Origin: a virus
UHGV virus genome: UHGV-1978634
DNA: 39,633 nt
Strand: one strand, 5' to 3'
The position numbers and the translations under genes are program-made. Shown piece by piece: positions 17,561-36,923 of the stretch. The first letter of the stretch is position 1, and every line of letters starts with the position of its first letter. The notes beneath the pieces were generated by a model. That model did not search any database. It was not told where the DNA came from and was given only the letters and a program-made list of their open reading frames with translations.

Positions 17561-18718
17561 TCACTCCACCTTTTCATCAAGCCAGTCTGCCCACCACTGC
17601 ATCATTTCTCTGCGCTTATCGAGATACTGAGCATGGTTGTAAATTCCGCGTACAGATCCGCCGTTGGCATGTGCCAGTTGTACTTCAATAGCATCAGCAG
17701 GCCATTCGTGCTCGTTCATAATCGTGCTGAATTCATGCCTGAATCCGTGACCGCTTTCCAGACCTTCATAGCCGATTTGTTTGATCACAAGCAGTACCGC
17801 GTTCTCGCAGATTGGCTTCTTCTTATCGTTGCGCCCGGCAAAAACAAACTCTGATACTGGTTTGGTGATTGAGCTTAGCGTAGTGAGAAGTTCAACCACC
17901 TGGTCCGACATCGGGACAACATGAATCTTGCGTCCCTTCATCACACTGGCGTCGATAGTGATAATCCTGTTTTCAAAATCGACGTTCTTCCATTGCATGG
18001 AACGAAGCTCTTTCGTTCTTAGGGCTGTGTAGCGTAAAACTTTGGTCGCAATGAGCGATACGATACTTCCTGAAAATGTTGCCAGTGCTTTGTTGAATGC
18101 AGGGATCTGGTCTGCAGGAAGAAACGGGAAGTTCTTCTTGCGGTATCCCTTCATGGCGTCAGCAAGGTCAGGTGCCGGGTTATATTTAGCCCTTCCGGTG
18201 ACAATAGCGTAACGGAAAACCTCGCCGCATCTTCTGCGTGCTTTGTTGGCTCGCTCCATTGCACCGCGATCTTCAAATCTGCGGATTACTTCCAGAAGTT
18301 GCATCGGCTCAATATCCTGAATTTCAAGGCTGCCGATGATAGGTAAAATGTCGTCATCAAACATTTTGGCAAGTTCAGTTGCATAGCCTACTGACCAGAC
18401 TTGCTTCTTGTGCTCGTACCATTCCTTGTAAATCGCACTAAAGGAATTGTTGTTAGACGAAGCCTTTTTCGCCTTTACCGGATCGATGCCAACCGAGATG
18501 TCTTTCCTCGCAGTCCATGCTTTATCCCTTGCCTCCTGCAAAGTCATAAGCGGATATTTTCCGACGGTCAGGATTTTCTCCTTACCGTCAATCTTGTAGC
18601 GAAGCTGCCATACCTTTTTCCCTGACACAGGGACATAAAGGTACAGGCCATTACCATCGAGAAGGCGGTATGGTTTTTCTTTCGGCTTTGCTGCTTCAAT
18701 CTGCTTAACGGTGAGCAT
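17561..18718 (-). CDS. int: Tyrosine integrase (P4-type)
   Basis: ORF 17561..18754; first ATG with typical N-terminus MLTVKQIEAAKPKEKPYRLLDGNGLYLYV.. at 18718; C-terminal catalytic region ..HGFRH.. Confidence 0.9.
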   Translation of the reverse strand: MLTVKQIEAAKPKEKPYRLLDGNGLYLYVPVSGKKVWQLRYKIDGKEKILTVGKYPLMTLQEARDKAWTARKDISVGIDPVKAKKASSNNNSFSAIYKEWYEHKKQVWSVGYATELAKMFDDDILPIIGSLEIQDIEPMQLLEVIRRFEDRGAMERANKARRRCGEVFRYAIVTGRAKYNPAPDLADAMKGYRKKNFPFLPADQIPAFNKALATFSGSIVSLIATKVLRYTALRTKELRSMQWKNVDFENRIITIDASVMKGRKIHVVPMSDQVVELLTTLSSITKPVSEFVFAGRNDKKKPICENAVLLVIKQIGYEGLESGHGFRHEFSTIMNEHEWPADAIEVQLAHANGGSVRGIYNHAQYLDKRREMMQWWADWLDEKVE

Positions 18719-18967
18719 GGGTAAAAATCCGGTGGGTAAAATTATTTTATCCACTTTTTACCCGTCATGGAGTGCGGCTGTCAACGATCTGACGCGAACC
18801 ATGACGAACTGTAAATCTACGGAAGGCTTGATATTCAGGGGATTTTGCGGACTGGTACGGATGGGAGCGAACTGATAAATGGTGTCCCCTGCAGACATCT
18901 ACTTGAAGCGGCAGGGGATTGATTGGAATGGTGTTTTTTAGATGTGAAAAATATTTTACCCGCTATT
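18719..18967. other. Candidate attP between xis and int, with tRNA-Arg(argW)-like 3-prime-end core at 18880-18894
   Basis: tggtgtcccctgcag is the reverse complement of ctgcaggggacacca, which I recall as the 3-prime end of E. coli argW; flanked by inverted tcccctgc / gcagggga and by five TTTTACCC/GGGTAAAA motifs. Confidence 0.5.
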
Positions 18968-19233: not shown

Positions 19234-19393
19234 CTTGGTGTTCTTTCAGTTCTTCAATTCGAATATTGGTTACGTCTGCATGCGCTATCTGCGCCCACAG
19301 CATCCAGTGGTCATAGCAGTCGTTGATGTTCTCCGCTTCGATAACTCTGTTGAATGGTTCTCCATTCCATTCACCTGTGACTCGGAAGTGCAT
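19226..19393 (-). CDS. Hypothetical small protein (55 aa)
   Basis: My own translation MHFRVTGEWNGEPFNRVIEAENINDCYDHWMLWAQIAHADVTNIRIEELKEHQAA; GGAG RBS about 8 nt upstream; terminator at stop. Confidence 0.4.
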   Translation of the reverse strand: MHFRVTGEWNGEPFNRVIEAENINDCYDHWMLWAQIAHADVTNIRIEELKEHQAA

Positions 19394-19537
19394 TTATCAT
19401 CTCCATAAAACAAAACTCGCCGTAGCGAGTTCAGATAAAAGAAATCCCCGCGAGTGCGAGGATTGTTATTCATTGCCGATATTCACCTTTATCGCGAATA
19501 CCTTTACCGGTTTATCGCCGAAGTGCGGATGCTTCGT

Positions 19538-19726
19538 TTATATCAATCCCACGCATTCTGACCGACGAATAAATAACTCTTCTCCGTTATGTATTGCGAC
19601 ATAGCCGTAAACAGTTTTATGCATCACATCGAACTCATCCCATACGGAAACTCCACACTCTGCTAATGAGCAATTCAAATAATTCCCCGGTTGCTTGCCG
19701 GTGTTATTAATGAGGCGAATCCTCAT
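19538..19726 (-). CDS. Hypothetical protein (62 aa)
   Basis: ORF track; protein-like composition; weak RBS. Confidence 0.35.
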   Translation of the reverse strand: MRIRLINNTGKQPGNYLNCSLAECGVSVWDEFDVMHKTVYGYVAIHNGEELFIRRSECVGLI

Positions 19727-19963
19727 ATCTTATTCACTTTTGGCTGCAAGGTGTAGCCACCACGGTAAGCTCCATCAGCATGGGCGAATTCATATACCTG
19801 TACACTATTACGATGCAGAAATAAAACATGCATATTTTTGATAGGCTATGTTAATGATTTTTAAATATTTATTGTCTTATCAAGAATGTCTGTAATACCC
19901 CTATTAACCCGTCACATATAAACAATTTATAAAAATTTTCTTAACGCTATCACATTATTTAAT

Positions 19964-20263
19964 TTACCTTTCCCGATAGGTATATAGTTCATCATGTGCA
20001 ACCTTGCGATTGCGATGTATTCCCATTTCTTTCTCTACGCGTATTGCTGCATTGCGTAATGTTCTTGAGGTCGCGACTTCTCTTGAACTTACATTTTTTA
20101 ATGTAGCCGATTTAATGCAACGTTGAATTTGCCTCTGGATATACATCCGCTGGTCTGTCTGAGTCTCCTGACGATAATCCATCAGCACATCTTGCCAGCG
20201 AGCCGCAGCTCTGCGCCAAAGCCCTTTATTTTCAAGTTCTTCAGCTTTTTTATCTTTAACCAT
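19964..20263 (-). CDS. PerC-like transcriptional activator (moron-like, AT-rich)
   Basis: ORF 19964..20278; ATG at 20263 with AGGAG RBS; motif KAEELENKGLWRRAAARWQDVL resembles the PerC family. Confidence 0.5.
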   Translation of the reverse strand: MVKDKKAEELENKGLWRRAAARWQDVLMDYRQETQTDQRMYIQRQIQRCIKSATLKNVSSREVATSRTLRNAAIRVEKEMGIHRNRKVAHDELYTYRER

Positions 20264-20289
20264 ACAGTCTCCTATCACACTAAATATTA

Positions 20290-20325
20290 AATAATAACTA
20301 TCAGGTTTATCAGATAGTTATTATT
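20290..20325. repeat. Perfect 13-bp inverted repeat (aataataactatc / gatagttattatt, 10-bp spacer) upstream of the PerC-like gene
   Basis: Read directly from sequence. Confidence 0.6.
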
Positions 20326-20689
20326 ACAGTTAAGTATAGGGGCGGTAATAATAACCTAAGATGGTGGTGAAATTCAAGCCAGATGCCGTTATGCAACTCA
20401 ACAGAAATAAGCTGTTGCTTTTTATCTCACTATTCATTTGTCTCATTTCCAGCTATACTCATTGTTCACACAACACAAAAGGCATAGAAATGACAGTGTA
20501 TGGCATATCAGAAAACAGTATTGTTCACTTACGTGAAAAAAATGGATAATGGCTTGTGTTGCACATTATTAAAAATGGCGACATTATATATCACCTCAAA
20601 AATACAGACAAAGAAATGAACGTCACACTTCAGGATATTATCCCCAATAAATAATCAAATGAGCGTGGCGCACGATGCCCCGCGCTATT

Positions 20690-20779
20690 CTACTTATCAC
20701 CCCAGCGGCAAATCGAAAACACAACCAGTGCCACCGCTATTGCAACTCCTACCGTTGCGAATGCTTCAGGCCAGCTCAT
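20690..20779 (-). CDS. Small hydrophobic peptide (29 aa), translationally coupled to the upstream gene
   Basis: MSWPEAFATVGVAIAVALVVFSICRWGDK; AGGAGG RBS; ATGA overlap with the stop of the 217-aa gene. Confidence 0.35.
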   Translation of the reverse strand: MSWPEAFATVGVAIAVALVVFSICRWGDK

Positions 20780-21429
20780 TGATTCACCTCCTGCGGCGGT
20801 TCTGGTAGATGCATCCAGTGGGTTACACCGTCAATTGGTTCATCGTCGTCGTACTCCAATGCGGCTATATAGAACCCGTCACGACGAGAATAAGAAATCC
20901 CGGACATTACAATGCCATCCGAAACAACTATAATGTCACCCGTTTCTTCCGGCATTCGCTCACTACAGCTTATCCAACTATCCGGAGTTACCGGAGAGTT
21001 GCCGGGTTCTTTAATGTGCAAGCGAGGCTCACCATCTTTTGGTTCAGGCCACTGGCGCTCCATGTTGATCTTCAATTTATCTTCCATAGCAGCGGTAATT
21101 TCAGCATCGCTGATGCCAGCACGGCGCTGTGCATCCCACAACAGGAAATGCATATCAGCCCACTCGCTGAGATCGTCTGGTTCGGCTGCGGCTTCCAGAG
21201 CCTCTTTTGAGAGGTGTTTCAGTGGACCAATGGGGCCAACGCAGCCAAATGTGGAGTCAGACCATTTGGCATGCTCGTGGCGAATCAGTTCGCGTTCCAG
21301 TGATGCCAGTGCAATTCGTGCCAGTTCCTTAAGATTTTCGCTATATGGTGAAGTATTATCACGGTTGATTACGTGATTAGCTGTATCTATGAGAACTTGC
21401 TTTTGTTCTTCTCTGGTCATAGTGGTCAT
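20776..21429 (-). CDS. Phage early-region protein with DUF551-like C-terminus
   Basis: 217 aa; C-terminal ..THWMHLPEPP.. typical of DUF551 proteins. Confidence 0.55.
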   Translation of the reverse strand: MTTMTREEQKQVLIDTANHVINRDNTSPYSENLKELARIALASLERELIRHEHAKWSDSTFGCVGPIGPLKHLSKEALEAAAEPDDLSEWADMHFLLWDAQRRAGISDAEITAAMEDKLKINMERQWPEPKDGEPRLHIKEPGNSPVTPDSWISCSERMPEETGDIIVVSDGIVMSGISYSRRDGFYIAALEYDDDEPIDGVTHWMHLPEPPQEVNQ

Positions 21430-23785: not shown

Positions 23786-24079
23786 TCAGTCATTACTGAT
23801 AGCGCCATAGCGTGAGCGGTAATTACGCAGGCGCGGGTCAATTTCAGGGAAGTGGGTATATGTGGCTTTGCGGAATGGTCGGATTGATGTCTGGTAAATT
23901 CGCTCGCGTTCTTCTTTCTCTGCAAGCCATATACAGTGGCGAAATTCCTTTTCCTCTTTCGTTTCCTGCGGTAGCGACATTATCAGGTCGTAGTTTTTTC
24001 TGAATTTATCCAGCACCTCCGATACGGAATTGCCGGAGCAGCGGCGCGGGTCATCCGCACCATACAGAGGCGCTGGCAT
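23786..24079 (-). CDS. Hypothetical protein (97 aa)
   Basis: ORF track; operon context. Confidence 0.5.
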   Translation of the reverse strand: MPAPLYGADDPRRCSGNSVSEVLDKFRKNYDLIMSLPQETKEEKEFRHCIWLAEKEERERIYQTSIRPFRKATYTHFPEIDPRLRNYRSRYGAISND

Positions 24080-24102: not shown

Positions 24103-24486
24103 TTAGAAGGGAATTGAATCGTCGTATTCAGGATGATTTTGATGATTGCTACTTTGTTGCTGTTGGCTGTTTCCTGAAGTTGCAAATCCAATCTTTGCAT
24201 TCAGTAATTCAAGAGTGATTGATTGACCATTTTGCCCCTGATAAACATCAACCCTGATGTTTTCTCCGGTAATTTCCACAATGCCACCTTCAACAAGAAC
24301 GCTACGGTAGTAATCCGCTTGCGCTCCCGGCTTGGCAAATACAACGGCGCTGTAGTTTGTCCATTCTTTCTTTTTTGTCTGGCGATCGTAATACTGAACG
24401 CCAGCACGGATGTTGAATCCGATATTTTCCCCGGCCTGAAACTCTCTTGCGGGCTTGTTTAGTCTTACAGTAATCGAATGTGCCAT
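24103..24486 (-). CDS. Phage single-strand DNA-binding protein-like (OB fold, acidic DDSIPF tail)
   Basis: ORF 24103..24576, ATG at 24486; C-terminal ..EYDDSIPF resembles the SSB tail DDDIPF; adjacent to erf. Confidence 0.6.
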   Translation of the reverse strand: MAHSITVRLNKPAREFQAGENIGFNIRAGVQYYDRQTKKKEWTNYSAVVFAKPGAQADYYRSVLVEGGIVEITGENIRVDVYQGQNGQSITLELLNAKIGFATSGNSQQQQSSNHQNHPEYDDSIPF

Positions 24487-25091
24487 TAAGCAGCCGCTCC
24501 TTCTAATTCGTCTCGTCTGATGTTGTAAACGTCCTGCGCTTTGTGCTGCTCCGGTGTGCCTTCGAGCATCTTCCACGCTTTGGCGAACGCCTGTTTAAGC
24601 TCTTCCACGTTGTTTTTCTGCATTGCTGCGTCAGTGAATGCTTTTAGAACCTGTTCAGGTGTAGGTGATGGTTTTGATTGCTTTGCTGCTGCGTTCTGCT
24701 GATGTTTATGCTCGTCTGTATCTGCATCTTTCGCATCATCAATGCCGAATAAACCATTGAGGCAATACTTGCGTGCATAAGAGCTTGTAGCTCCCGTAAC
24801 TTGTGCAGAATCCATTCCTTTCTTGCTTTCTTCCTCTCGTGCAAGAGCGGTTGCCGTATGACTGTTTTCGCCATCGGTAATAGTTGCCGTGGCTTTCACG
24901 TAATACCGATCACCAATCAACACAACTTCATCGCTGATTGATAAAAACAGGCCATTCAGTAACGGCTTAACGCCTTCAAGAATGTCTTCGCAGCTTCTGT
25001 ATTTATATTTGCCGAATGAGTTGTACTGATTCTTTGGCGCGTTCAGATTCTCCTGAATAGCTGCCAGTCTTGCGTAAAATTCTTTGCTCAT
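24486..25091 (-). CDS. erf: Erf single-strand annealing recombinase
   Basis: MSKEFYARLAAIQENLNAPKNQYNSFGKYKYRSCEDILEGVKPLLNGLFLSISDEVVLIGDRYYVKATATITDGENSH.. matches the P22 Erf family as I recall it. Confidence 0.85.
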   Translation of the reverse strand: MSKEFYARLAAIQENLNAPKNQYNSFGKYKYRSCEDILEGVKPLLNGLFLSISDEVVLIGDRYYVKATATITDGENSHTATALAREEESKKGMDSAQVTGATSSYARKYCLNGLFGIDDAKDADTDEHKHQQNAAAKQSKPSPTPEQVLKAFTDAAMQKNNVEELKQAFAKAWKMLEGTPEQHKAQDVYNIRRDELEGAAA

Positions 25092-25180
25092 ATGATTGTT
25101 CTCAGAATGGACATGGCCCAAGGAAATAACGCTGATTTAATACTTCAGTCTTTGCCGCATTTAAAAATACGCGAACACCT

Positions 25181-27385: not shown

Positions 27386-27775
27386 TTAGTCAGCGAAGGT
27401 TAAGACGAGAATTACCTTAATGATGTCTGCTACAACAGACACGGCCATAGATAAACCAAAGACGATCCAAGCCATAGAGATGTCTTCACTACCATCGTAT
27501 AGCGTTCCGTAATCACTGGTGTAAGGCGTAAATGTCGCGCCTTGATACAACAGGTATAAGCTTGAACCATAGAGGATAAATGCAGATATCCCTTGTATTG
27601 CTATGACCACTAGAATCATGAAACGAGCAGATCTATGCGCCCAAGCCTGGCTTATTTTTTCTGATAGAGATTTCGCAATAAAAGCATGCGCTAAGCCGTA
27701 AATTGTTGAGATTGCCAACATCCCCAAAAAGCTTGCTATAGCGGTTCCAACCATAATCGCCCCTTGCGTGATCAA
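27386..27775 (-). CDS. Polytopic membrane protein co-transcribed with cI (candidate exclusion / abortive-infection factor)
   Basis: 129 aa, 3-4 predicted TM helices; start overlaps the cI stop by 4 nt. Confidence 0.7.
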   Translation of the reverse strand: MITQGAIMVGTAIASFLGMLAISTIYGLAHAFIAKSLSEKISQAWAHRSARFMILVVIAIQGISAFILYGSSLYLLYQGATFTPYTSDYGTLYDGSEDISMAWIVFGLSMAVSVVADIIKVILVLTFAD

Positions 27776-28488
27776 ACCAGCCTTAGTTTTGTCTCAATTG
27801 CAACGCCTATAATCTTGCAGTTTCCATTGATTGGCACGAGAGGCCATGCAGGATTAAGTCCCTTGAGGTATTTATTTCCGCCGTCGATTATCAGCTTCTT
27901 GAATGTTGCTTCGTTAGAGTCAGAATGTTTTGCTATGACCAAGCTGCCGTTGATCGCCTCCCTTCCGGTATCGAAAAGAACGAATGTTCCCTCTGGAATG
28001 CTTAACCCAACCGGTGCCGTCATTGAATCACCTTCCACTTTAAGCCAGAACGCATTACCTTGAATATGCGCGTCAGACTCAAGCCAAACATCTATGTCTT
28101 TAATGGTGTATGGTTCGCATGCTTCACACCACGAGCCAGCCTGGATACTGCTTAACACCGGATACCTCTTTCCTGCTCTGTATTCCCCTGCATACCTTAC
28201 GTTGGCATCGCTCTTAAGGCTTTCTGCCTGTTCTGCAACCTTGGCAGCAATTGACTGGCTAAAATCAGCAATTGAGACTTGCAACAATCGTGCAAAACCA
28301 GATGCAACCTCAACGTTTAGCGCGTTTCTGCCATTAAGATAATGCCCTACCGCTCCTTGGGTGATACCCAGTTCATCAGCGATTGAGTATTGGGTTATTC
28401 CCAATTCTTTCTTTTTTGACTCATACAAAGCCTTAAGCCGCTTAGCGTCTTCGAGCTGTTCTGTCGTCAGTGATTTTTTATTTTCCAT
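27772..28488 (-). CDS. cI: CI-type repressor (HTH plus LexA-like S24 peptidase domain)
   Basis: 238 aa; ..LGITQYSIADELGITQGAVGHYLNG.. HTH; C-terminal ..VEGDSM.. autocleavage domain. Confidence 0.9.
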   Translation of the reverse strand: MENKKSLTTEQLEDAKRLKALYESKKKELGITQYSIADELGITQGAVGHYLNGRNALNVEVASGFARLLQVSIADFSQSIAAKVAEQAESLKSDANVRYAGEYRAGKRYPVLSSIQAGSWCEACEPYTIKDIDVWLESDAHIQGNAFWLKVEGDSMTAPVGLSIPEGTFVLFDTGREAINGSLVIAKHSDSNEATFKKLIIDGGNKYLKGLNPAWPLVPINGNCKIIGVAIETKLRLV

Positions 28489-30226: not shown

Positions 30227-30334
30227 ATGAAATCAAAAATCAAATCGCTACTGGTCGCTGGTTATAACCACGGCTGGTTAAGTATTTCGTTTGTCGATTT
30301 CTGGTTTAAAAATCTCAATCTGAGGGAATCATGA
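30227..30334 (+). CDS. Hypothetical small protein (35 aa)
   Basis: AGGTGA RBS; stop overlaps the primase-helicase ATG. Confidence 0.3.
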   Translation: MKSKIKSLLVAGYNHGWLSISFVDFWFKNLNLRES

Positions 30335-32211
30335 GGCCAAGTGAACTTAGCGATCTGCTTTGGGCGCAGGTTGACAGGGTGGCTCCGCACCTGTTGCCAA
30401 ACGGCAAGAAAGAGGGGCATGAGTGGGTTGCCGGTAACGTCAACGGTGACAAGGGAAACAGCCTTAAGGTCAACCTTAGCGGCAAGAAAAAATGGGCTGA
30501 TTTCGCTGAGGGAGACGGCGGTGACATGCTTGATTTGTGGATGGCATGTCGTGGAATTAACCTGCATCAGGCTATGCAGGAAGCGAAAGCATTTCTCGGT
30601 ATCAAGGATGACGATCACCATTTCGATGCCAAACGTGAGAAAAAATTCTCCAGACCTGATCGCAAGAAAATCGCCCGCTACGTTACCAGAACAGAATCCC
30701 ATCTTGAGTACCTGCAATCGCGTGGCATATCGCCAGAAATCGTAAAGCGCTACGAGGTTGTCAGCGGCAAGGTGTGGAATGGAGAGCGGGAACTGGATGC
30801 TCTGGTGATTCCGTACAAACGCGATGGTGAGTTGTTGCAGGTCAAGCGAATCAGCACTGAGCGCCCGGACGGGAAGAAAGTCATTATGGCAGAAGGTGAT
30901 TGCGAACCTTGTCTGTTCGGATGGCACGCTCTGGACGCTGGCGTGAGGGCGGTTGTACTTTGCGAAGGCGAAATTGATTGTATGAGCTATGCGCAATACG
31001 GCATCTCGGCGTTATCCGTGCCGTTTGGTGGCGGGAAAGGCGCTAAGCAGCAGTGGATTGAGTTTGAGTATCACAATCTCGACAGGTTTGAGGAAATATT
31101 CATCTCGATGGACGTTGATGATGTTGGTCGTGAAGCCGCAAGGGAAATCGCAAGCCGACTCGGTGAACATCGTTGCCGTCTTGTTACTCTGCCGTACAAA
31201 GACATCAACGAATGCCTGATGAACGGTGTTACCGAGGATGAAATCTGGCAGTACATCGGCACGGCATCCAACTTCGATCCTGAAGAACTCTACAGTGCGC
31301 GAGAGTTTTACCAGGACATTATCAACGCTTTCTACGGCAAGCAGCAGTATCTGTTTAATCCACCGTGGGAATCTCTGGCAGATAAATTCCAGTTCCGTGA
31401 GGCAGAGTTGACGCTGGTCAATGGTGTGAACGGTCACGGAAAAACGGAGGTTGTCGGGCATATGGCACTTGAGGCAATGCGTCAGGGTGTGAAGACGTGC
31501 ATCGCGTCACTTGAGCTGAAGCCTGGTATTCTCCTTAAGCGCCTTACCCGTCAGGCGACGTGCTGCAAGATTCCGCCAGTTCTGGAAATTGACTCTGCAT
31601 TTAAATTTTATGACGAAAGACTTTGGGTGTTTGGCCTGACCGGAACGGCGAAAGCCGACAGGCTGATCGAAATATTCGACTACGCTCGCCGCCGATACGG
31701 GATCCAGTTATTCATCATCGACAGCCTGATGAAATGTGGCATAGGCGACGATGACTATAACGGGCAGAAGGCGTTTGTTGACTCGATTTGCGACTTCAAA
31801 AACAAAACAAACTCCCACGTCATTCTCGTTACTCACTCGCGAAAAGGAGACAGCGAAGAAAAACCAACCGGGAAAATGGACGTTAAAGGCTCTGGAGCGA
31901 TAACAGACCTGACAGACAACCTTTTCATCATCTGGCGTAACAAGGCTCGCGAGAGAGCGTTACAGAGAGTTCAGAGTGGTGAAAAGATGTCAGAGAAGGA
32001 CGAACAGCTACTGGCGTCTCCTGCATCTGTTTTGATGCTTGAAAAACAACGTAACGGCGAAGGTTGGGAAGGTGGTGTCCCGTTGTTCCTTGACGAGCAA
32101 TCGCACCAGTTCCTGCAACTTGAATCAGGATCGCCATATAGCTACATCGCCAATATGCCGAAATCGGAATATGACGAGGCGTGGCGACAGGAAAACGTGA
32201 CGGAGTATTAA
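30331..32211 (+). CDS. Bifunctional primase / DnaB-family replicative helicase
   Basis: 626 aa; N-terminal Cys/His cluster and primase-like region, C-terminal Walker A ..LVNGVNGHGKTEV.. and ..IIDSL.. helicase motifs. Confidence 0.8.
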   Translation: MRPSELSDLLWAQVDRVAPHLLPNGKKEGHEWVAGNVNGDKGNSLKVNLSGKKKWADFAEGDGGDMLDLWMACRGINLHQAMQEAKAFLGIKDDDHHFDAKREKKFSRPDRKKIARYVTRTESHLEYLQSRGISPEIVKRYEVVSGKVWNGERELDALVIPYKRDGELLQVKRISTERPDGKKVIMAEGDCEPCLFGWHALDAGVRAVVLCEGEIDCMSYAQYGISALSVPFGGGKGAKQQWIEFEYHNLDRFEEIFISMDVDDVGREAAREIASRLGEHRCRLVTLPYKDINECLMNGVTEDEIWQYIGTASNFDPEELYSAREFYQDIINAFYGKQQYLFNPPWESLADKFQFREAELTLVNGVNGHGKTEVVGHMALEAMRQGVKTCIASLELKPGILLKRLTRQATCCKIPPVLEIDSAFKFYDERLWVFGLTGTAKADRLIEIFDYARRRYGIQLFIIDSLMKCGIGDDDYNGQKAFVDSICDFKNKTNSHVILVTHSRKGDSEEKPTGKMDVKGSGAITDLTDNLFIIWRNKARERALQRVQSGEKMSEKDEQLLASPASVLMLEKQRNGEGWEGGVPLFLDEQSHQFLQLESGSPYSYIANMPKSEYDEAWRQENVTEY

Positions 32212-32241
32212 ATGACCATCTACATCACTTAGCTAATAACA

Positions 32242-32269
32242 GGGGCTATTTACACAGTAGCCCTTTTTT
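32242..32269 (+). terminator. Rho-independent terminator after the replication operon
   Basis: gggcta / tagccc stem followed by T6. Confidence 0.6.
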
Positions 32270-32298
32270 ATTGGATTAAGAGCAAGGGGTAAGTACCG

Positions 32299-32481
32299 AT
32301 GGTAAATGCATTTATTTGTGGTTTATTTCTTGTCGCTATTTTTCATGGATTCCTTCTGATGATGAGTTTTGTTCTCTGGAATAATGCATATCGCATATTG
32401 GGGGTAGGTTTTGTTTTACGGTTTTCAGTCGTCTGCGCGTTGCTACCGATAATTATGGCGACTATCAAATATTATTGGTAA
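32299..32481 (+). CDS. Small hydrophobic protein (60 aa)
   Basis: Two predicted TM segments; follows a terminator. Confidence 0.4.
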   Translation: MVNAFICGLFLVAIFHGFLLMMSFVLWNNAYRILGVGFVLRFSVVCALLPIIMATIKYYW

Positions 32482-32508
32482 CCCAAAAAATCATCGATGG
32501 AGAGTGAT

Positions 32509-32751
32509 ATGGACGAATCAAGAAAACAGTTTTTGGAGTGGTTTGGTGAAGAGTTCGAGCCTATTAACAACAGCGAAGAACTTCACGTTCAGGCCATCAA
32601 GATGATTGCCTGGCAGTCATGGGTTAAGTCTCGCGCATCTATCGAAATTAAATGGCCATCTCATGGAATAGACGCTTCTGGCGGGACTTACCACCGCAGA
32701 GATGACATGAAAAAAGAGCTAAGCGACGCTGGAGTCAAAGTGAAGGAGTAA
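32509..32751 (+). CDS. Hypothetical nin-region protein (80 aa)
   Basis: ORF 32497..32751; second ATG preceded by a GGAGAG RBS. Confidence 0.5.
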   Translation: MDESRKQFLEWFGEEFEPINNSEELHVQAIKMIAWQSWVKSRASIEIKWPSHGIDASGGTYHRRDDMKKELSDAGVKVKE

Positions 32752-32753
32752 CG

Positions 32754-33164
32754 ATGAAGCAAACAATCTTCCTCCGAAGTAAGCAACAACAGCAAGCCGC
32801 AATCAACGCCATCCTCGCAACACCACTCGATAAAGACAAGCCAGTCACCATCCGCATTACTGACTACAAGCGCAACCTTGACCAGAACGCAAAATTTCAC
32901 GCGATGCTGGCGGATATCGCTCGTCAGGTTCAATGGTGCGATAAATGGTTAAAACCAGAACAATGGAAGGTTTTGTTGATTAGCGGTCATGCAGTGGCAA
33001 CAAAGCAGGAAGCTGATGTTTTGCCCGGCCTTGAAGGCGAATACGTCAACATTCGCGAAAGCAGCGCACAGATGAGCGTGAAGCGCATGGCAAGCCTGAT
33101 TGAGTACACGACAGCATGGGCTATTGGTCAGGGTGTCAGATTTACCGACAGGAGGTACGAATGA
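32754..33164 (+). CDS. ninB: NinB recombination protein
   Basis: 136 aa; ..[32 protein letters not shown].. resembles lambda NinB. Confidence 0.75.
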
Positions 33165-35500: not shown

Positions 35501-35824
35501 ATGAAGATGCCAGAAAAACATGACCTGTTAGCCGCCATTCTCGCGGCAAAGGAACAAGGCATCGGGGCAATCCTTGCGTTTGCAATGGCGTACCTTCGCG
35601 GCAGATATAATGGCGGTGCGTTTACAAAAACAGTAATCGACGCAACGATGTGCGCCATTATCGCCTGGTTCATTCGTGACCTTCTCGACTTCGCCGGACT
35701 AAGTAGCAATCTCGCTTATATAACGAGCGTGTTCATCGGCTACATCGGTACTGACTCGATTGGTTCGCTTATCAAACGCTTCGCTGCTAAAAAAGCCGGA
35801 GTAGAAGATGGTGGAAATCAATAA
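35501..35824 (+). CDS. S: Holin S (lambda class I, dual-start MKM)
   Basis: 107-aa product matches lambda S as I recall it almost residue for residue. Confidence 0.9.
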
Positions 35825-36284
35825 TCAACGTAAGGCGTTCCTCGATATGCTGGCGTGGTCAGAGGGAACTGATAACGGACGTCAGAAAACCAGAAATCAT
35901 GGTTATGACGTCATTGTTGGCGGAGAGCTATTCACTGATTACTCCGATCACCCTCGCAAACTTGTCACGCTAAACCCAAAACTCAAATCAACAGCAGCCG
36001 GACGTTACCAGCTTCTTTCCCGTTGGTGGGATGCCTACCGCAAGCAGCTTGGACTGAAAGACTTCTCTCCGAAAAGCCAGGACGCTGTGGCACTGCAACA
36101 GATTAAAGAGCGTGGCGCTTTACCGATGATTGATCGCGGTGATATTCGTCAGGCTATCGACCGTTGCAGCAATATCTGGGCTTCACTGCCGGGCGCTGGT
36201 TATGGTCAGTTCGAGCATAAGGCTGACAGCCTGATTGCAAAATTCAAAGAGGCTGGCGGAACGGTCAGAGAGATTGAGGTATGA
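35808..36284 (+). CDS. R: Endolysin R (lytic transglycosylase)
   Basis: 158 aa, lambda R-like. Confidence 0.9.
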
Positions 36285-36748
36285 GCAGAGTAACCGCGAT
36301 TATCTCCGCTCTGGTTATCTGCATCATCGTCTGTCTGTCATGGGCTGTTAATCATTACCGTGATAACGCCATCGCCTACAAAGAACAGCGAGATAAAAAA
36401 GTCAGTGAGCTGAAGCAGGCGACCGCCACCATTACTGACATGCAGCAGCGCCAGCGTTCTGCTGATGCACTCGATGCTAAATACACGAAGGAGTTAGCTG
36501 ATGCGAAAGCTGAAAATGATGCTCTTCGGCGCAAGCTTGATAATGGTGGTCGGGTGTTCGTCAAAGGAAAATGCCCTATGCCATCCTCAGCCGAAACCTC
36601 CAGCGCCTCCGGCATGGGCAATGATGCCACCGTCGAACTCTCTCCAGTTGCTGGACGAAACGTTCTCGGTATCCGGGACGGAATCATCAGCGACCAAACA
36701 GCACTGAGAACGCTTCAGGAATACATCAGGACGCAATGCCTTCGATGA
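36281..36748 (+). CDS. Rz: Rz inner-membrane spanin
   Basis: 155 aa; N-terminal TM segment then coiled-coil. Confidence 0.85.
36501..36707 (+). CDS. Rz1: Rz1 outer-membrane lipoprotein spanin, embedded in Rz in the +1 frame
   Basis: Lipobox ..VVGCSS.. and proline-rich [11 protein letters not shown] segment. Confidence 0.7.
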
Positions 36749-36923
36749 TAGCGATAATTTTACTCATCATCCTTCACATCTGGCTCTGTAGACAGGGTGG
36801 TGATCACTTCTGGAGTAAATCCAGATTAAACATCTCATTGCTGATGCTTGATATTGAGCATCTGGCGCGCAGTAAGGGGCTGCGTTGAGATAAGAGCCAG
36901 TTCATTACAAATACCAGGATTTA

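What the first reader, a model, noticed from the sequence alone, without database searches (positions are those of the whole stretch)
20690..20779. Small hydrophobic peptides that may be membrane-active
A 29-aa TM peptide (strong RBS, coupled to the DUF551 gene) and the 60-aa two-TM ORF at 32299..32481 resemble small toxin, holin-like or Kil-type proteins and would be missed by standard annotation thresholds.
Basis: inference. Interest (0 to 1): 0.3.

Follow-up and report, generated by a model that had tools for sequence, protein, structure and literature searches.

The report
Two conserved unannotated phage membrane micropeptides
Both small hydrophobic ORFs are real, conserved genes for tiny membrane proteins in the early accessory regions of a P22-like temperate phage; the 29-codon one sits unannotated in about a third of complete E. 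coli genomes, and neither is a known toxin, holin or Kil, so what they do is still unknown.

Summary
sORF-A (20690-20779, minus strand, 29 aa) has an AGGAGG ribosome-binding site. Its ATG overlaps the stop of the upstream DUF550/DUF551 gene (ATGA). It occurs at 4,335 places in 1,727 of 5,426 complete E. coli genomes and in 93 phage records. It is almost always 27 codons long, and RefSeq left it unannotated at all five loci I inspected. The homology block is only the ribosome-binding site plus the ORF, joined to at least three unrelated upstream genes. Variation peaks at third codon positions (p about 1e-3) and pN/pS is 0.41. Peptides with the same M-x-WPEAF start and one transmembrane helix occur in other phages, including Achromobacter prophages.

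sORF-B (32299-32481, plus strand, 60 aa) gave weak substitution evidence. A profile search then found 60-65 aa relatives at 30-40% identity with an invariant loop motif. One of them sits in the same slot between the replication genes and NinB.

Neither ORF matches Pfam, PHROGs, NCBIfam or PADLOC. The window has its own lambda-S-type holin elsewhere. My reading is that both are early-expressed inner-membrane micropeptides acting through helix packing inside the membrane. Toxicity is untested. They are new members of a known kind, of moderate interest.

The parts
20690..20779 (-). sORF-A: 29-codon gene for a single-pass membrane micropeptide of the 'WPEAF' family. It is 27 codons in most relatives; a 1-nt insertion before the stop adds Asp-Lys here.
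   Evidence: There are 89 unique family sequences; 83 are intact and 80 stop at codon 28. Third-position variation dominates. The exact 29-aa protein is GenBank ELG07599.1, on 113 contigs.
20787..20792 (-). Shine-Dalgarno AGGAGG of sORF-A, embedded in the last codons (Gln-Glu-Val) of the upstream gene.
   Evidence: GGAGG is kept at the same distance in nearly all relatives, whichever gene lies upstream.
20776..21429 (-). Upstream Eaa-type gene (PF04447 dATP/dGTP pyrophosphohydrolase + DUF551). Its TGA overlaps the sORF-A ATG (ATGA).
20577..20595 (-). Terminator-like hairpin plus T-run about 100 nt downstream of sORF-A; a possible end of the leftward early transcript segment.
   Evidence: This is a consensus match only.
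32299..32481 (+). sORF-B: 60-codon gene for a two-helix membrane hairpin protein, the first gene of the nin region.
32284..32289 (+). SD-like AAGGGG, 9 nt upstream of the sORF-B ATG.
   Evidence: It is conserved as (G)AGGG in relatives.
32241..32271 (+). Strong intrinsic terminator (10-bp stem plus T-run) between the primase/helicase gene and sORF-B. It occupies a tR2-like position, so sORF-B expression should need antitermination.
   Evidence: The dependence on antitermination is inferred from lambdoid nin-region organisation.
32497..32751 (+). 84-aa gene following sORF-B (phrog_343; the slot of the phiTE_015 family gene in relatives), then NinB at 32754-33164.

Best explanation
Both ORFs are genuine, translated genes for very small inner-membrane proteins. 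They belong to the phage's non-essential early accessory gene sets.

sORF-A
- It is the last cistron of the leftward, pL-type delayed-early operon: C2-type repressor, Erf, Abc2, HNH, ea genes, Eaa, then sORF-A.
- It has no promoter of its own. Ribosomes finishing the upstream gene, or loading on the AGGAGG embedded in that gene's last codons, start at the overlapping ATG.
- The product is almost nothing but one transmembrane helix bracketed by two interfacial tryptophans, W3 and W26.
- The acidic N-end (E5) and the basic C-end (R25) predict an N-out/C-in orientation.
- A conserved stripe of small residues (G11, A13, A15, A17) offers a flat helix-packing face.
- I infer that it works inside the membrane by packing against a host inner-membrane protein or against itself. 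That would make it a modulator or blocker of a host membrane machine during early lytic growth, for example in host takeover or exclusion of other phages. I think this is more likely than a pore-forming killer.

sORF-B
- It is the first nin-region gene, downstream of a tR2-like terminator, so it should be expressed only under antitermination.
- It forms a two-helix hairpin with an invariant short loop (S-F-x-x-W-x-N ... L-G ... R). The basic residues suggest the loop faces the cytoplasm.

Shown: the gene anatomy, the conservation, coding-type substitution for sORF-A, and a distant family with conserved synteny for sORF-B.

Inferred: translation, topology, intramembrane partner binding and the biological role.
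For: sORF-A
- 93 phage records carry it at 69-81% amino-acid identity.
- It occurs at 4,335 places in 1,727 of 5,426 complete E. coli genomes, up to 9 per genome and 163 on plasmids. The homology typically starts at the ATG and ends at about codon 27.
- The upstream genes are unrelated: DUF551 ...PEPPQEVNQ, an Ea22-like coil ...NIEQEVNR, and ...ISVEDILR. The ATGA overlap and GGAGG are kept in all three settings.
- Of 89 unique sequences, 83 are intact and 80 stop at codon 28. Entropy at codon positions 1/2/3 is 6.81/3.64/11.55 over codons 8-20, which lie outside both search patterns (Wilcoxon p 8.5e-4).
- pN/pS is 0.41 in the sORF frame, against 0.71-1.85 in four of the other five frames.
- W3, P4, E5, A6, F7, G11, A13, A15, A17, Y21, R25, W26 and G27 are nearly invariant.
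- In viral contigs, 9 of 12 matches that are not the E. coli type are 23-34 aa M-x-WPEAF-plus-TM peptides. Among 119 mostly chance matches in cellular genomes, only 1 is. One of the distant peptides is annotated in Achromobacter.

sORF-B
- Three protein clusters at 98, 85 and 77% identity are all 60 aa.
- In relatives it sits in a tight gene array: replication gene, 68 aa, 106 aa, sORF-B, phiTE_015, NinB.
- A profile search of 1.84 billion representatives gives 60-65 aa relatives at 30-40% identity: P0051 at E 2.7e-9, and P0052, P0054 and P0055 at 3e-5 to 1e-4. S23, F24, W27, N29, L34, G35 and R41 are invariant.
- P0051 occupies the same slot (O, DnaB, 150 aa, [61 aa], 53 aa, phiTE_015, ASCH, NinB) and overlaps its upstream gene by 8 nt.
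- P0054 lies in another phage early array, packed 2 nt after the gene before it and overlapping the next gene by 4 nt.
- The AlphaFold2 model is a hairpin with pLDDT 78.

Context
Against: - I found no expression data. 'WPEAF' appears in no relevant paper and not in the supplements of the EHEC Sakai small-gene Ribo-seq study.
- For sORF-A, the antisense frame whose wobble positions coincide with the sense frame has the same pN/pS (0.41) and is open in 59 of 60 sequences. Substitution data alone therefore do not fix the strand. The strand call rests on the start codon, the SD, the exact stop, the ATGA overlap and the hydrophobicity. In the window that antisense frame has no start codon before 20835.
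- pN/pS of 0.41 is only moderate constraint.
- For sORF-B, close relatives show no significant excess of synonymous change: 9 synonymous to 19 non-synonymous, p 0.16, ratio about 0.6. NinB in the same pair of genomes scores 0.05.
- The sORF-B family is small, 12 clusters, all in Enterobacterales.
- No partner, topology or phenotype has been shown.
- A uniformly hydrophobic helix is also what several type I toxins look like (background knowledge).
Confidence: 0.55

Rival explanations
1. One or both peptides are membrane-damaging toxins or host-killing (Kil-like) functions, whose expression depolarises or permeabilises the inner membrane or blocks growth.
For: - Both are short and strongly hydrophobic.
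- sORF-A is expressed from the same early-left operon that carries kil in lambda and P22 (background knowledge; operon layout).
- In 56 of 105 relatives sORF-A lies within 1.5 kb upstream of a hok-type toxin gene, so the neighbourhood tolerates membrane toxins.
- Type I toxins such as Ibs, ShoB and Hok are likewise little more than a hydrophobic helix (background knowledge).
Against: - Neither ORF matches Hok/Gef, holin, Kil or any defence or toxin model.
- Lambda Kil is a soluble FtsZ inhibitor, not a membrane peptide (review PMC11323111).
- sORF-A has no promoter of its own, and the scan found no antisense promoter facing it.
- The sORF-A helix is rich in Ala, Gly and Val, with a small-residue stripe and no polar or charged face. 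That pattern fits helix packing better than pore lining (inference).
- The association with hok is facultative, and hok is absent from this window.
Confidence: 0.2
2. The peptides are irrelevant. The conserved blocks are DNA-level features: short homologous 'linker' sequences at module boundaries that promote recombination among mosaic lambdoid phages, or spacer or terminator-zone DNA that happens to be open.
For: - sORF-A sits exactly at a mosaic junction, with different genes upstream and different morons downstream.
- Close relatives of sORF-B show near-neutral substitution.
- sORF-B follows a terminator in a stretch RefSeq leaves unannotated.
Against: - sORF-A shows three-base periodicity of variation.
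- Start, SD, length and stop of sORF-A are conserved across 83 of 89 unique sequences.
- WPEAF-plus-TM peptides exist in GC-rich phages with quite different DNA.
- sORF-B has relatives at 30-40% identity that keep the length, an invariant motif and the genomic slot. DNA-level conservation cannot explain that.
Confidence: 0.1
3. Translation of sORF-A matters in cis, not its product. Keeping ribosomes on the end of the operon could protect the transcript from Rho or position termination. It could also set expression of whatever moron follows, such as hok/sok.
For: - sORF-A is usually the terminal cistron. It is followed by a hairpin and terminator-like sites and by an independently regulated insert.
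Against: - Residue-level conservation and a maintained TM helix are not needed for a purely cis role.
- In several relatives another gene follows within 2-3 nt, so sORF-A is not always terminal (L018, L023, L107).
- The downstream neighbours are heterogeneous.
Confidence: 0.05

Closest known systems
PfsE of Pseudomonas filamentous phage Pf4 (about 30-aa membrane peptide that binds PilC and blocks type IV pili and superinfection). Recalled from background knowledge, not checked with these tools.
   Same: It is a phage-encoded peptide of about 30 aa that is essentially one transmembrane helix with conserved aromatic residues. It is proposed to act by binding a host inner-membrane protein.
   Different: I did not test sequence similarity. 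The phage type differs (filamentous versus tailed lambdoid). No target of sORF-A is known. sORF-A sits in an early lytic operon.
Bacterial small membrane regulators: KdpF (29 aa), PmrR, MgtS, AcrZ, CydX.
   Same: They have the same size class and are single helices with almost no extramembrane part. They act by packing against a larger membrane protein. KdpF was the only, and sub-threshold, NCBIfam hit for the common 27-aa allele (E 0.024, 14.7 bits against a cutoff of 26.85).
   Different: That hit is below threshold and covers only 12 hydrophobic residues. Those proteins are chromosomal and co-encoded with their partners. sORF-A is phage-borne and joined to varying neighbours.
Hok/Gef type I toxins (hokD, hokW).
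   Same: They are small hydrophobic phage- or prophage-borne membrane peptides translated by coupling to an overlapping upstream frame (mok). A hok gene lies just downstream of sORF-A in about half of its relatives.
   Different: sORF-A has no Pfam PF01848 match, no Hok Cys/LCE motif, is half the length and shows no sok-type antisense element. The window has no hok.
Lambda/P22 Kil and the Rac prophage KilR.
   Same: They are short products of the same leftward early operon and are non-essential host-directed functions.
   Different: Kil is a soluble FtsZ-assembly inhibitor (PMC11323111), not a membrane helix. There is no sequence match. It occupies a different position in the operon, next to cIII/gam rather than at the distal end.
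Holins and pinholins (lambda S, S21).
   Same: They are small phage membrane proteins. Class II holins are two-helix hairpins like sORF-B.
   Different: Holins sit next to the endolysin gene in the late operon and carry a charged C-terminal tail. This phage already has a PF05106 holin at 35501-35824 with an endolysin gene and Rz. Neither sORF matches a holin model. Foldseek against viral structures gave nothing below E 2.
Pf3 major coat protein, as a model for insertion and topology (background knowledge).
   Same: It has an acidic short N-tail, an Ala/Gly/Val/Ile-rich helix, then Arg-Trp at the cytoplasmic end. It is the classic signal-less N-out/C-in protein inserted by YidC.
   Different: It is a structural virion protein of a filamentous phage and 44 aa long. 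The resemblance is compositional and I did not test it as homology.

Membership tests
Hok/Gef type I toxin (PF01848) | Sequence match to the family model and the conserved Cys...LCE core. | tested here: not met
   No Pfam hit at E <= 1 for either sORF. A Hok-motif scan finds none within 1.5 kb downstream of sORF-A in the window.
Hok/Gef type I toxin (PF01848) | An overlapping mok-type frame and a sok-type antisense RNA with its own promoter. | tested here: inconclusive
   The promoter scan shows no plus-strand promoter-like site facing sORF-A between 20600 and 20700. Rfam finds only two tRNAs in the window. A consensus scan cannot exclude a weak promoter.
Phage holin / pinholin | Located in the late lysis cassette next to the endolysin gene. 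| tested here: not met
   The lysis cassette is at 35501-36748: a PF05106 holin, an endolysin gene and PF03245 Rz. sORF-A lies in the early-left operon and sORF-B at the start of the nin region.
Phage holin / pinholin | Match to a holin family model or fold. | tested here: not met
   No Pfam or PHROG holin hit. Foldseek of the sORF-B model against BFVD gave a best E of 2.3.
Lambda-type Kil (FtsZ inhibitor) | Homology to Kil, and a soluble roughly 47-aa product. | tested here: not met
   No family hit. sORF-A is a transmembrane helix with hydropathy 2.58. Kil's properties are taken from PMC11323111.
Lambda-type Kil (FtsZ inhibitor) | Expression blocks cell division or growth. | not testable with these tools
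   This needs inducible expression in vivo.
Known anti-phage defence or exclusion proteins (PADLOC-DB) | Match to a defence-system protein model. | tested here: not met
   No hits for the sORFs or their neighbours.
Conserved protein-coding gene (general test), sORF-A | Start, SD and stop are conserved; variation has three-base periodicity; selection is purifying. | tested here: met
   83 of 89 unique sequences are intact and 80 stop at codon 28. Position-3 entropy exceeds positions 1 and 2 (p 8.5e-4 and 3.5e-5). pN/pS is 0.41. Caveat: one antisense frame scores the same.
Conserved protein-coding gene (general test), sORF-B | Distant homologues of the same length with conserved residues and conserved gene order. 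| tested here: met
   Relatives of 60-65 aa at 30-40% identity share 8 invariant positions. One occupies the same slot before phiTE_015/NinB. Substitution statistics among close relatives alone were inconclusive.
Small single-helix membrane regulators (KdpF/PmrR/PfsE type): 'works like', not homology | Binds and modulates a specific larger membrane protein. | not testable with these tools
   Only the prerequisites were seen: a single helix, a small-residue stripe at G11/A13/A15/A17, and interfacial Trp residues.

The most novel reading that the evidence does not exclude
sORF-A could be the founding member of a very widespread family that current annotation largely misses. These would be roughly 27-aa phage 'WPEAF' transmembrane micropeptides, present in about one third of E. 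coli genomes and reaching Achromobacter and other hosts. They would be made early after induction or infection and would bind a conserved host inner-membrane machine to reprogramme or shield the cell, for example by excluding superinfecting phages as PfsE does through PilC. sORF-B would be a second, independent family of that sort.
Probability: 0.25. Interest if true: 0.6.

Novelty: new member of a known kind. Interest (0 to 1): 0.4.

Why it matters
Genes below about 30 codons fall under the thresholds of gene callers. This one is absent from RefSeq annotation at the loci I checked, yet it has thousands of copies in E. coli, including the Shiga-toxin prophages of EHEC, with up to 9 copies per genome.

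It is a clean, testable example of a conserved phage micropeptide. The whole product is one membrane helix, delivered by translational coupling, and it moves between phages as a self-contained unit of ribosome-binding site plus ORF.

Finding its target would add to the short list of phage peptides known to act inside the host membrane. If it proves toxic or exclusion-conferring, it would also bear on prophage induction physiology in pathogenic E. coli.

In practical terms, both families deserve a model in Pfam, NCBIfam or PHROGs so that they get annotated.

Tried and rejected
- The search for homologous proteins and the search for related loci refuse the 29-aa query as too short. Padding it with 12 upstream in-frame residues returned only 5 close E. 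coli entries.
- Pfam, PHROGs, NCBIfam and PADLOC gave nothing significant for either sORF. N-terminally extended mis-called versions of sORF-A did not reveal a PHROG either.
- I checked for a DUF551-peptide fusion, because one protein cluster mixed the 27-aa peptide with 121-aa DUF551 proteins. Those sequences do not contain the peptide, so there is no fusion.
- I tested an obligatory link to hok/sok. Only 56 of 105 loci have hok nearby, and this window has none.
- The K-12 Qin prophage, which has many catalogued small proteins, has no homologue of sORF-A. I did not check the other K-12 prophages.
- A literature search for the motif and the Sakai small-gene supplements found nothing.
- RNA folding of the region downstream of sORF-A is unremarkable, z -0.99. 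Rfam finds only two tRNAs in the window.
- The species-representative genomes hold no relative of sORF-B.
- The WPEAF DNA pattern in that same genome collection returned almost only chance matches. I used these as a null control.
- Foldseek of the sORF-B hairpin was uninformative.
- The antisense ORFs across sORF-A, including the annotated Min27 ORF82, are rejected as genes: pN/pS is 1.85 and 50 of 60 sequences carry stops.

Full report
**Setting.**
- The window is a P22-like or lambdoid temperate phage genome.
- On the minus strand it carries:
  - a tyrosine integrase (17561-18754);
  - a PerC-like gene (19964-20278);
  - an Eaa-type gene with PF04447 (dATP/dGTP pyrophosphohydrolase) and DUF551 domains (20776-21429);
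  - a DUF7739 gene, an HNH gene, Abc2 (23786-24079) and Erf (24486-25121);
  - an S24/HTH repressor (27772-28488).
- On the plus strand it carries:
  - a replication O-type gene and a Toprim/DnaB-like primase-helicase (30331-32211);
  - NinB, NinX, NinG and a Q-type antiterminator;
  - two tRNAs;
  - a lysis cassette with a lambda-S-type holin (35501-35824), an endolysin gene and Rz.
- sORF-A is therefore the distal cistron of the leftward early operon. sORF-B is the first gene after the replication genes.

**Observation.**
- sORF-A is at 20690..20779 (-) and reads MSWPEAFATVGVAIAVALVVFSICRWGDK.
- Its ATG overlaps the TGA of the Eaa gene (ATGA). AGGAGG lies 7 nt upstream, inside the last codons of that gene.
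- sORF-B is at 32299..32481 (+) and encodes 60 aa with two hydrophobic stretches.
- sORF-B is preceded by a 10-bp-stem intrinsic terminator (32241-32271) and an AAGGGG motif. The next gene starts 16 nt after its stop.
- Small ORFs are plentiful in any sequence. The window has 418 ORFs of 25-70 aa in six frames.
- Only 18 of these have a TM-grade hydrophobic stretch, and only 3 of those also have an ATG and an SD-like motif. Those three are the two ORFs of the finding and a third at 36736-36888.

**sORF-A is conserved as a self-contained unit.**
- tblastn finds it in 93 phage records at 69-81% identity.
- Sensitive blastn finds it at 4,335 places in 1,727 of 5,426 complete E. coli genomes, up to 9 copies per genome and 163 on plasmids.
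- Where the upstream gene is not a DUF551 gene, the DNA match begins at the ATG and ends at about codon 27.
- The upstream gene differs among loci. I saw DUF551 genes ending ...PEPPQEV(N/R)Q, Ea22-like coiled-coil genes ending ...NIEQEVNR, genes ending ...IS(V/A)ED(I/V)LR, and others.
- The ATGA overlap and a GGAGG at the same distance are always kept.
- Downstream partners vary as well:
  - a hok/mok locus (56 of 105 loci within 1.5 kb);
  - a type II toxin-antitoxin pair;
  - a KilA-N gene;
  - another tightly packed gene;
  - in this window, an AT-rich stretch and a PerC-like gene.
- Neither the phage records I inspected nor RefSeq/PGAP annotate it.
- GenBank holds sporadic 'hypothetical protein' entries. 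The exact 29-aa product is ELG07599.1 from E. coli KTE54, seen on 113 contigs.

**sORF-A evolves like a coding sequence.**
- I ran two pattern scans of IMG/VR, one anchored on the N-terminal codons and one on the C-terminal codons, so that each end is sampled without bias from its own pattern.
- With the other loci these gave 89 unique 84-nt sequences. Of these, 83 keep 27 intact codons with an ATG or GTG start, and 80 have the stop at codon 28.
- In codons 8-20, which neither pattern constrains, summed column entropy is 6.81, 3.64 and 11.55 at codon positions 1, 2 and 3 (Wilcoxon p 8.5e-4). Over codons 2-27, p is 3.5e-5.
- Pooled pN/pS is 0.41 in the sORF frame against 0.71-1.85 in four other frames.
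- One antisense frame, the one whose wobble positions coincide with those of the sense frame, scores the same 0.41 and is open in 59 of 60 sequences.
- In the window that frame has no start codon before 20835, and its translation is hydrophilic.
- I therefore assign the strand from the start codon, SD, exact stop, ATGA overlap and hydrophobicity, not from substitution statistics alone.
- The annotated antisense ORF82 of phage Min27 lies in the frame with pN/pS 1.85 and with stops in 50 of 60 sequences. It is probably spurious.
- The window's allele has a 1-nt insertion just before the usual stop, which adds Asp-Lys.

**The sORF-A family reaches beyond E. coli.**
- Among N-terminal pattern matches in viral contigs that are not the E. 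coli type, 9 of 12 are 23-34 aa peptides: M-x-WPEAF followed by about 18 hydrophobic residues and a basic end. Examples are MSWPEAFFGAVFIICVAWVYVTAIKDKDD and MTWPEAFLGAFIVVAAVLFFGFVTDAIKINIGGR.
- Several of these are again ATGA-coupled to an upstream ORF, in contigs of 40-66% G+C.
- The same pattern in 596 Gb of cellular genomes returned 120 matches, almost all by chance. One is a true E. coli copy. Only 1 of the other 119 is short and hydrophobic.
- One distant peptide is annotated twice in an Achromobacter genome. Another is seen on 260 mostly metagenomic contigs.

**What the sORF-A peptide looks like.**
- Nearly invariant residues are W3, P4, E5, A6, F7, G11, A13, A15, A17, Y21, R25, W26 and G27.
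- The 22 residues between the two tryptophans span a bilayer. Almost nothing protrudes from the membrane.
- The acidic N-end and the basic C-end, which is basic in every distant member too, predict N-out/C-in by the positive-inside rule. This is inference.
- G11, A13, A15 and A17 form a stripe of small residues, which is typical of close helix-helix packing. There is no polar face. This too is inference.

**sORF-B: close relatives.**
- Close relatives at 77-98% identity are all 60 aa. They lie in a tight array: replication gene, 68 aa, 106 aa, sORF-B, phiTE_015 family gene, NinB.
- About 588 E. coli genomes match the region, after three different kinds of replication gene. PGAP leaves the slot empty.
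- Substitutions among close relatives are not clearly coding-like. There are 9 synonymous and 19 non-synonymous changes against an expected synonymous fraction of 0.224 (p 0.16). The ratio is about 0.6, while NinB in the same genome pair scores 0.05.

**sORF-B: distant relatives.**
- A profile search of 1.84 billion representative proteins was decisive. It found 60-65 aa proteins at 30-40% identity: P0051 at E 2.7e-9, and P0052, P0054 and P0055 at 3e-5 to 1e-4.
- These share invariant S23, F24, W27, N29, L34, G35 and R41, that is, the loop and its flanks.
- P0051 sits in the same slot of another lambdoid phage (cII, O, DnaB, 150 aa, [61 aa], 53 aa, phiTE_015, ASCH, NinB). It overlaps the upstream gene by 8 nt.
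- P0054 sits in a tightly packed early accessory array.
- The family is small, with 12 clusters in E. coli, Enterobacter, Atlantibacter and Erwiniaceae. All members are 'hypothetical'.
- AlphaFold2 gives a two-helix hairpin with pLDDT 78. Foldseek against viral models is uninformative.

**Comparison with known families.**
- Neither sORF matches any model in Pfam, PHROGs v4, NCBIfam or PADLOC.
- They are not holins. The phage has its own holin in a standard lysis cassette, and both sORFs are in early operons.
- They are not Hok/Gef. There is no model match and no Hok motif, and I found no sok-type element.
- sORF-A is not Kil, which is a soluble FtsZ inhibitor (PMC11323111).
- The nearest functional analogues are one-helix membrane peptides that bind larger membrane proteins: KdpF, PmrR, MgtS and AcrZ in bacteria, and PfsE in Pf phage. 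This rests on background knowledge and is an analogy, not homology.

**Verdict.**
Membrane activity is not excluded and needs experiments.
- The best-supported mechanism is that both are early-expressed inner-membrane micropeptides acting by intramembrane helix packing on a host target or on themselves.
- I put confidence that these are real genes at roughly 0.85 for sORF-A and 0.8 for sORF-B. Confidence in the specific mode of action is much lower.
- I class the finding as new, unnamed families within a known kind of phage gene, of moderate interest. The main reason for the interest is how common and how consistently unannotated sORF-A is.

Noticed in passing
window 36736-36888 (+): A third small hydrophobic ORF of 50 aa, with an ATG and an SD-like motif. 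It overlaps the end of the Rz gene and matches phrog_11822 strongly (E 2e-37, unknown function).
   Followed up: partly
window 19900-20700: The PerC-like gene (19964-20278, -) and the AT-rich spacer next to sORF-A, which holds a 62-aa plus-strand ORF at 20361-20549 with a hydrophobic N-terminal stretch, have no megablast match in 5,426 complete E. coli genomes. A sensitive blastn of 19300-20800 against the phage records listed matches only to 19301-19531 among its top hits. This looks like a rare insert in the slot that holds hok/sok, a toxin-antitoxin pair or a KilA-N gene in relatives.
   Followed up: partly
L004 2178-2750 (phage Min27 ORF82, antisense to sORF-A): This annotated 190-aa 'hypothetical protein' runs antisense across sORF-A. 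It lies in the frame with pN/pS 1.85 and with stops in 50 of 60 family sequences, so it is probably a spurious gene call.
   Followed up: yes
L007 (PP818812.1, 'Actinobacillus phage vB_Apl-pPE4'): This record carries an E. coli-type lambdoid ea/hok segment with the commonest E. coli sORF-A allele and an E. coli-type Hok. The stated host looks doubtful.
   Followed up: no
L001 1382-1504 (phiv142-3 Orf32) and L003 1009-1287 (Kapi1_004): In two relatives, the slot directly after the Eaa (DUF550/551) gene holds unrelated small transmembrane ORFs of 40 aa and 92 aa. Both overlap the end of the Eaa gene (by 1 nt as annotated). Different membrane peptides can occupy this position.
   Followed up: partly
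window 19301-19531: This stretch is about 96-97% identical to a segment found in many lambdoid phages. In the HK022 record X51962 that segment is annotated as the tL4 terminator.
   Followed up: no
L246 (NZ_CP020522.1, 95-kb E. coli plasmid) 2522-2605: sORF-A also occurs, unannotated, after a DUF551 gene in an ea22-like gene block on a 95-kb plasmid. The plasmid may be a phage-plasmid.
   Followed up: no
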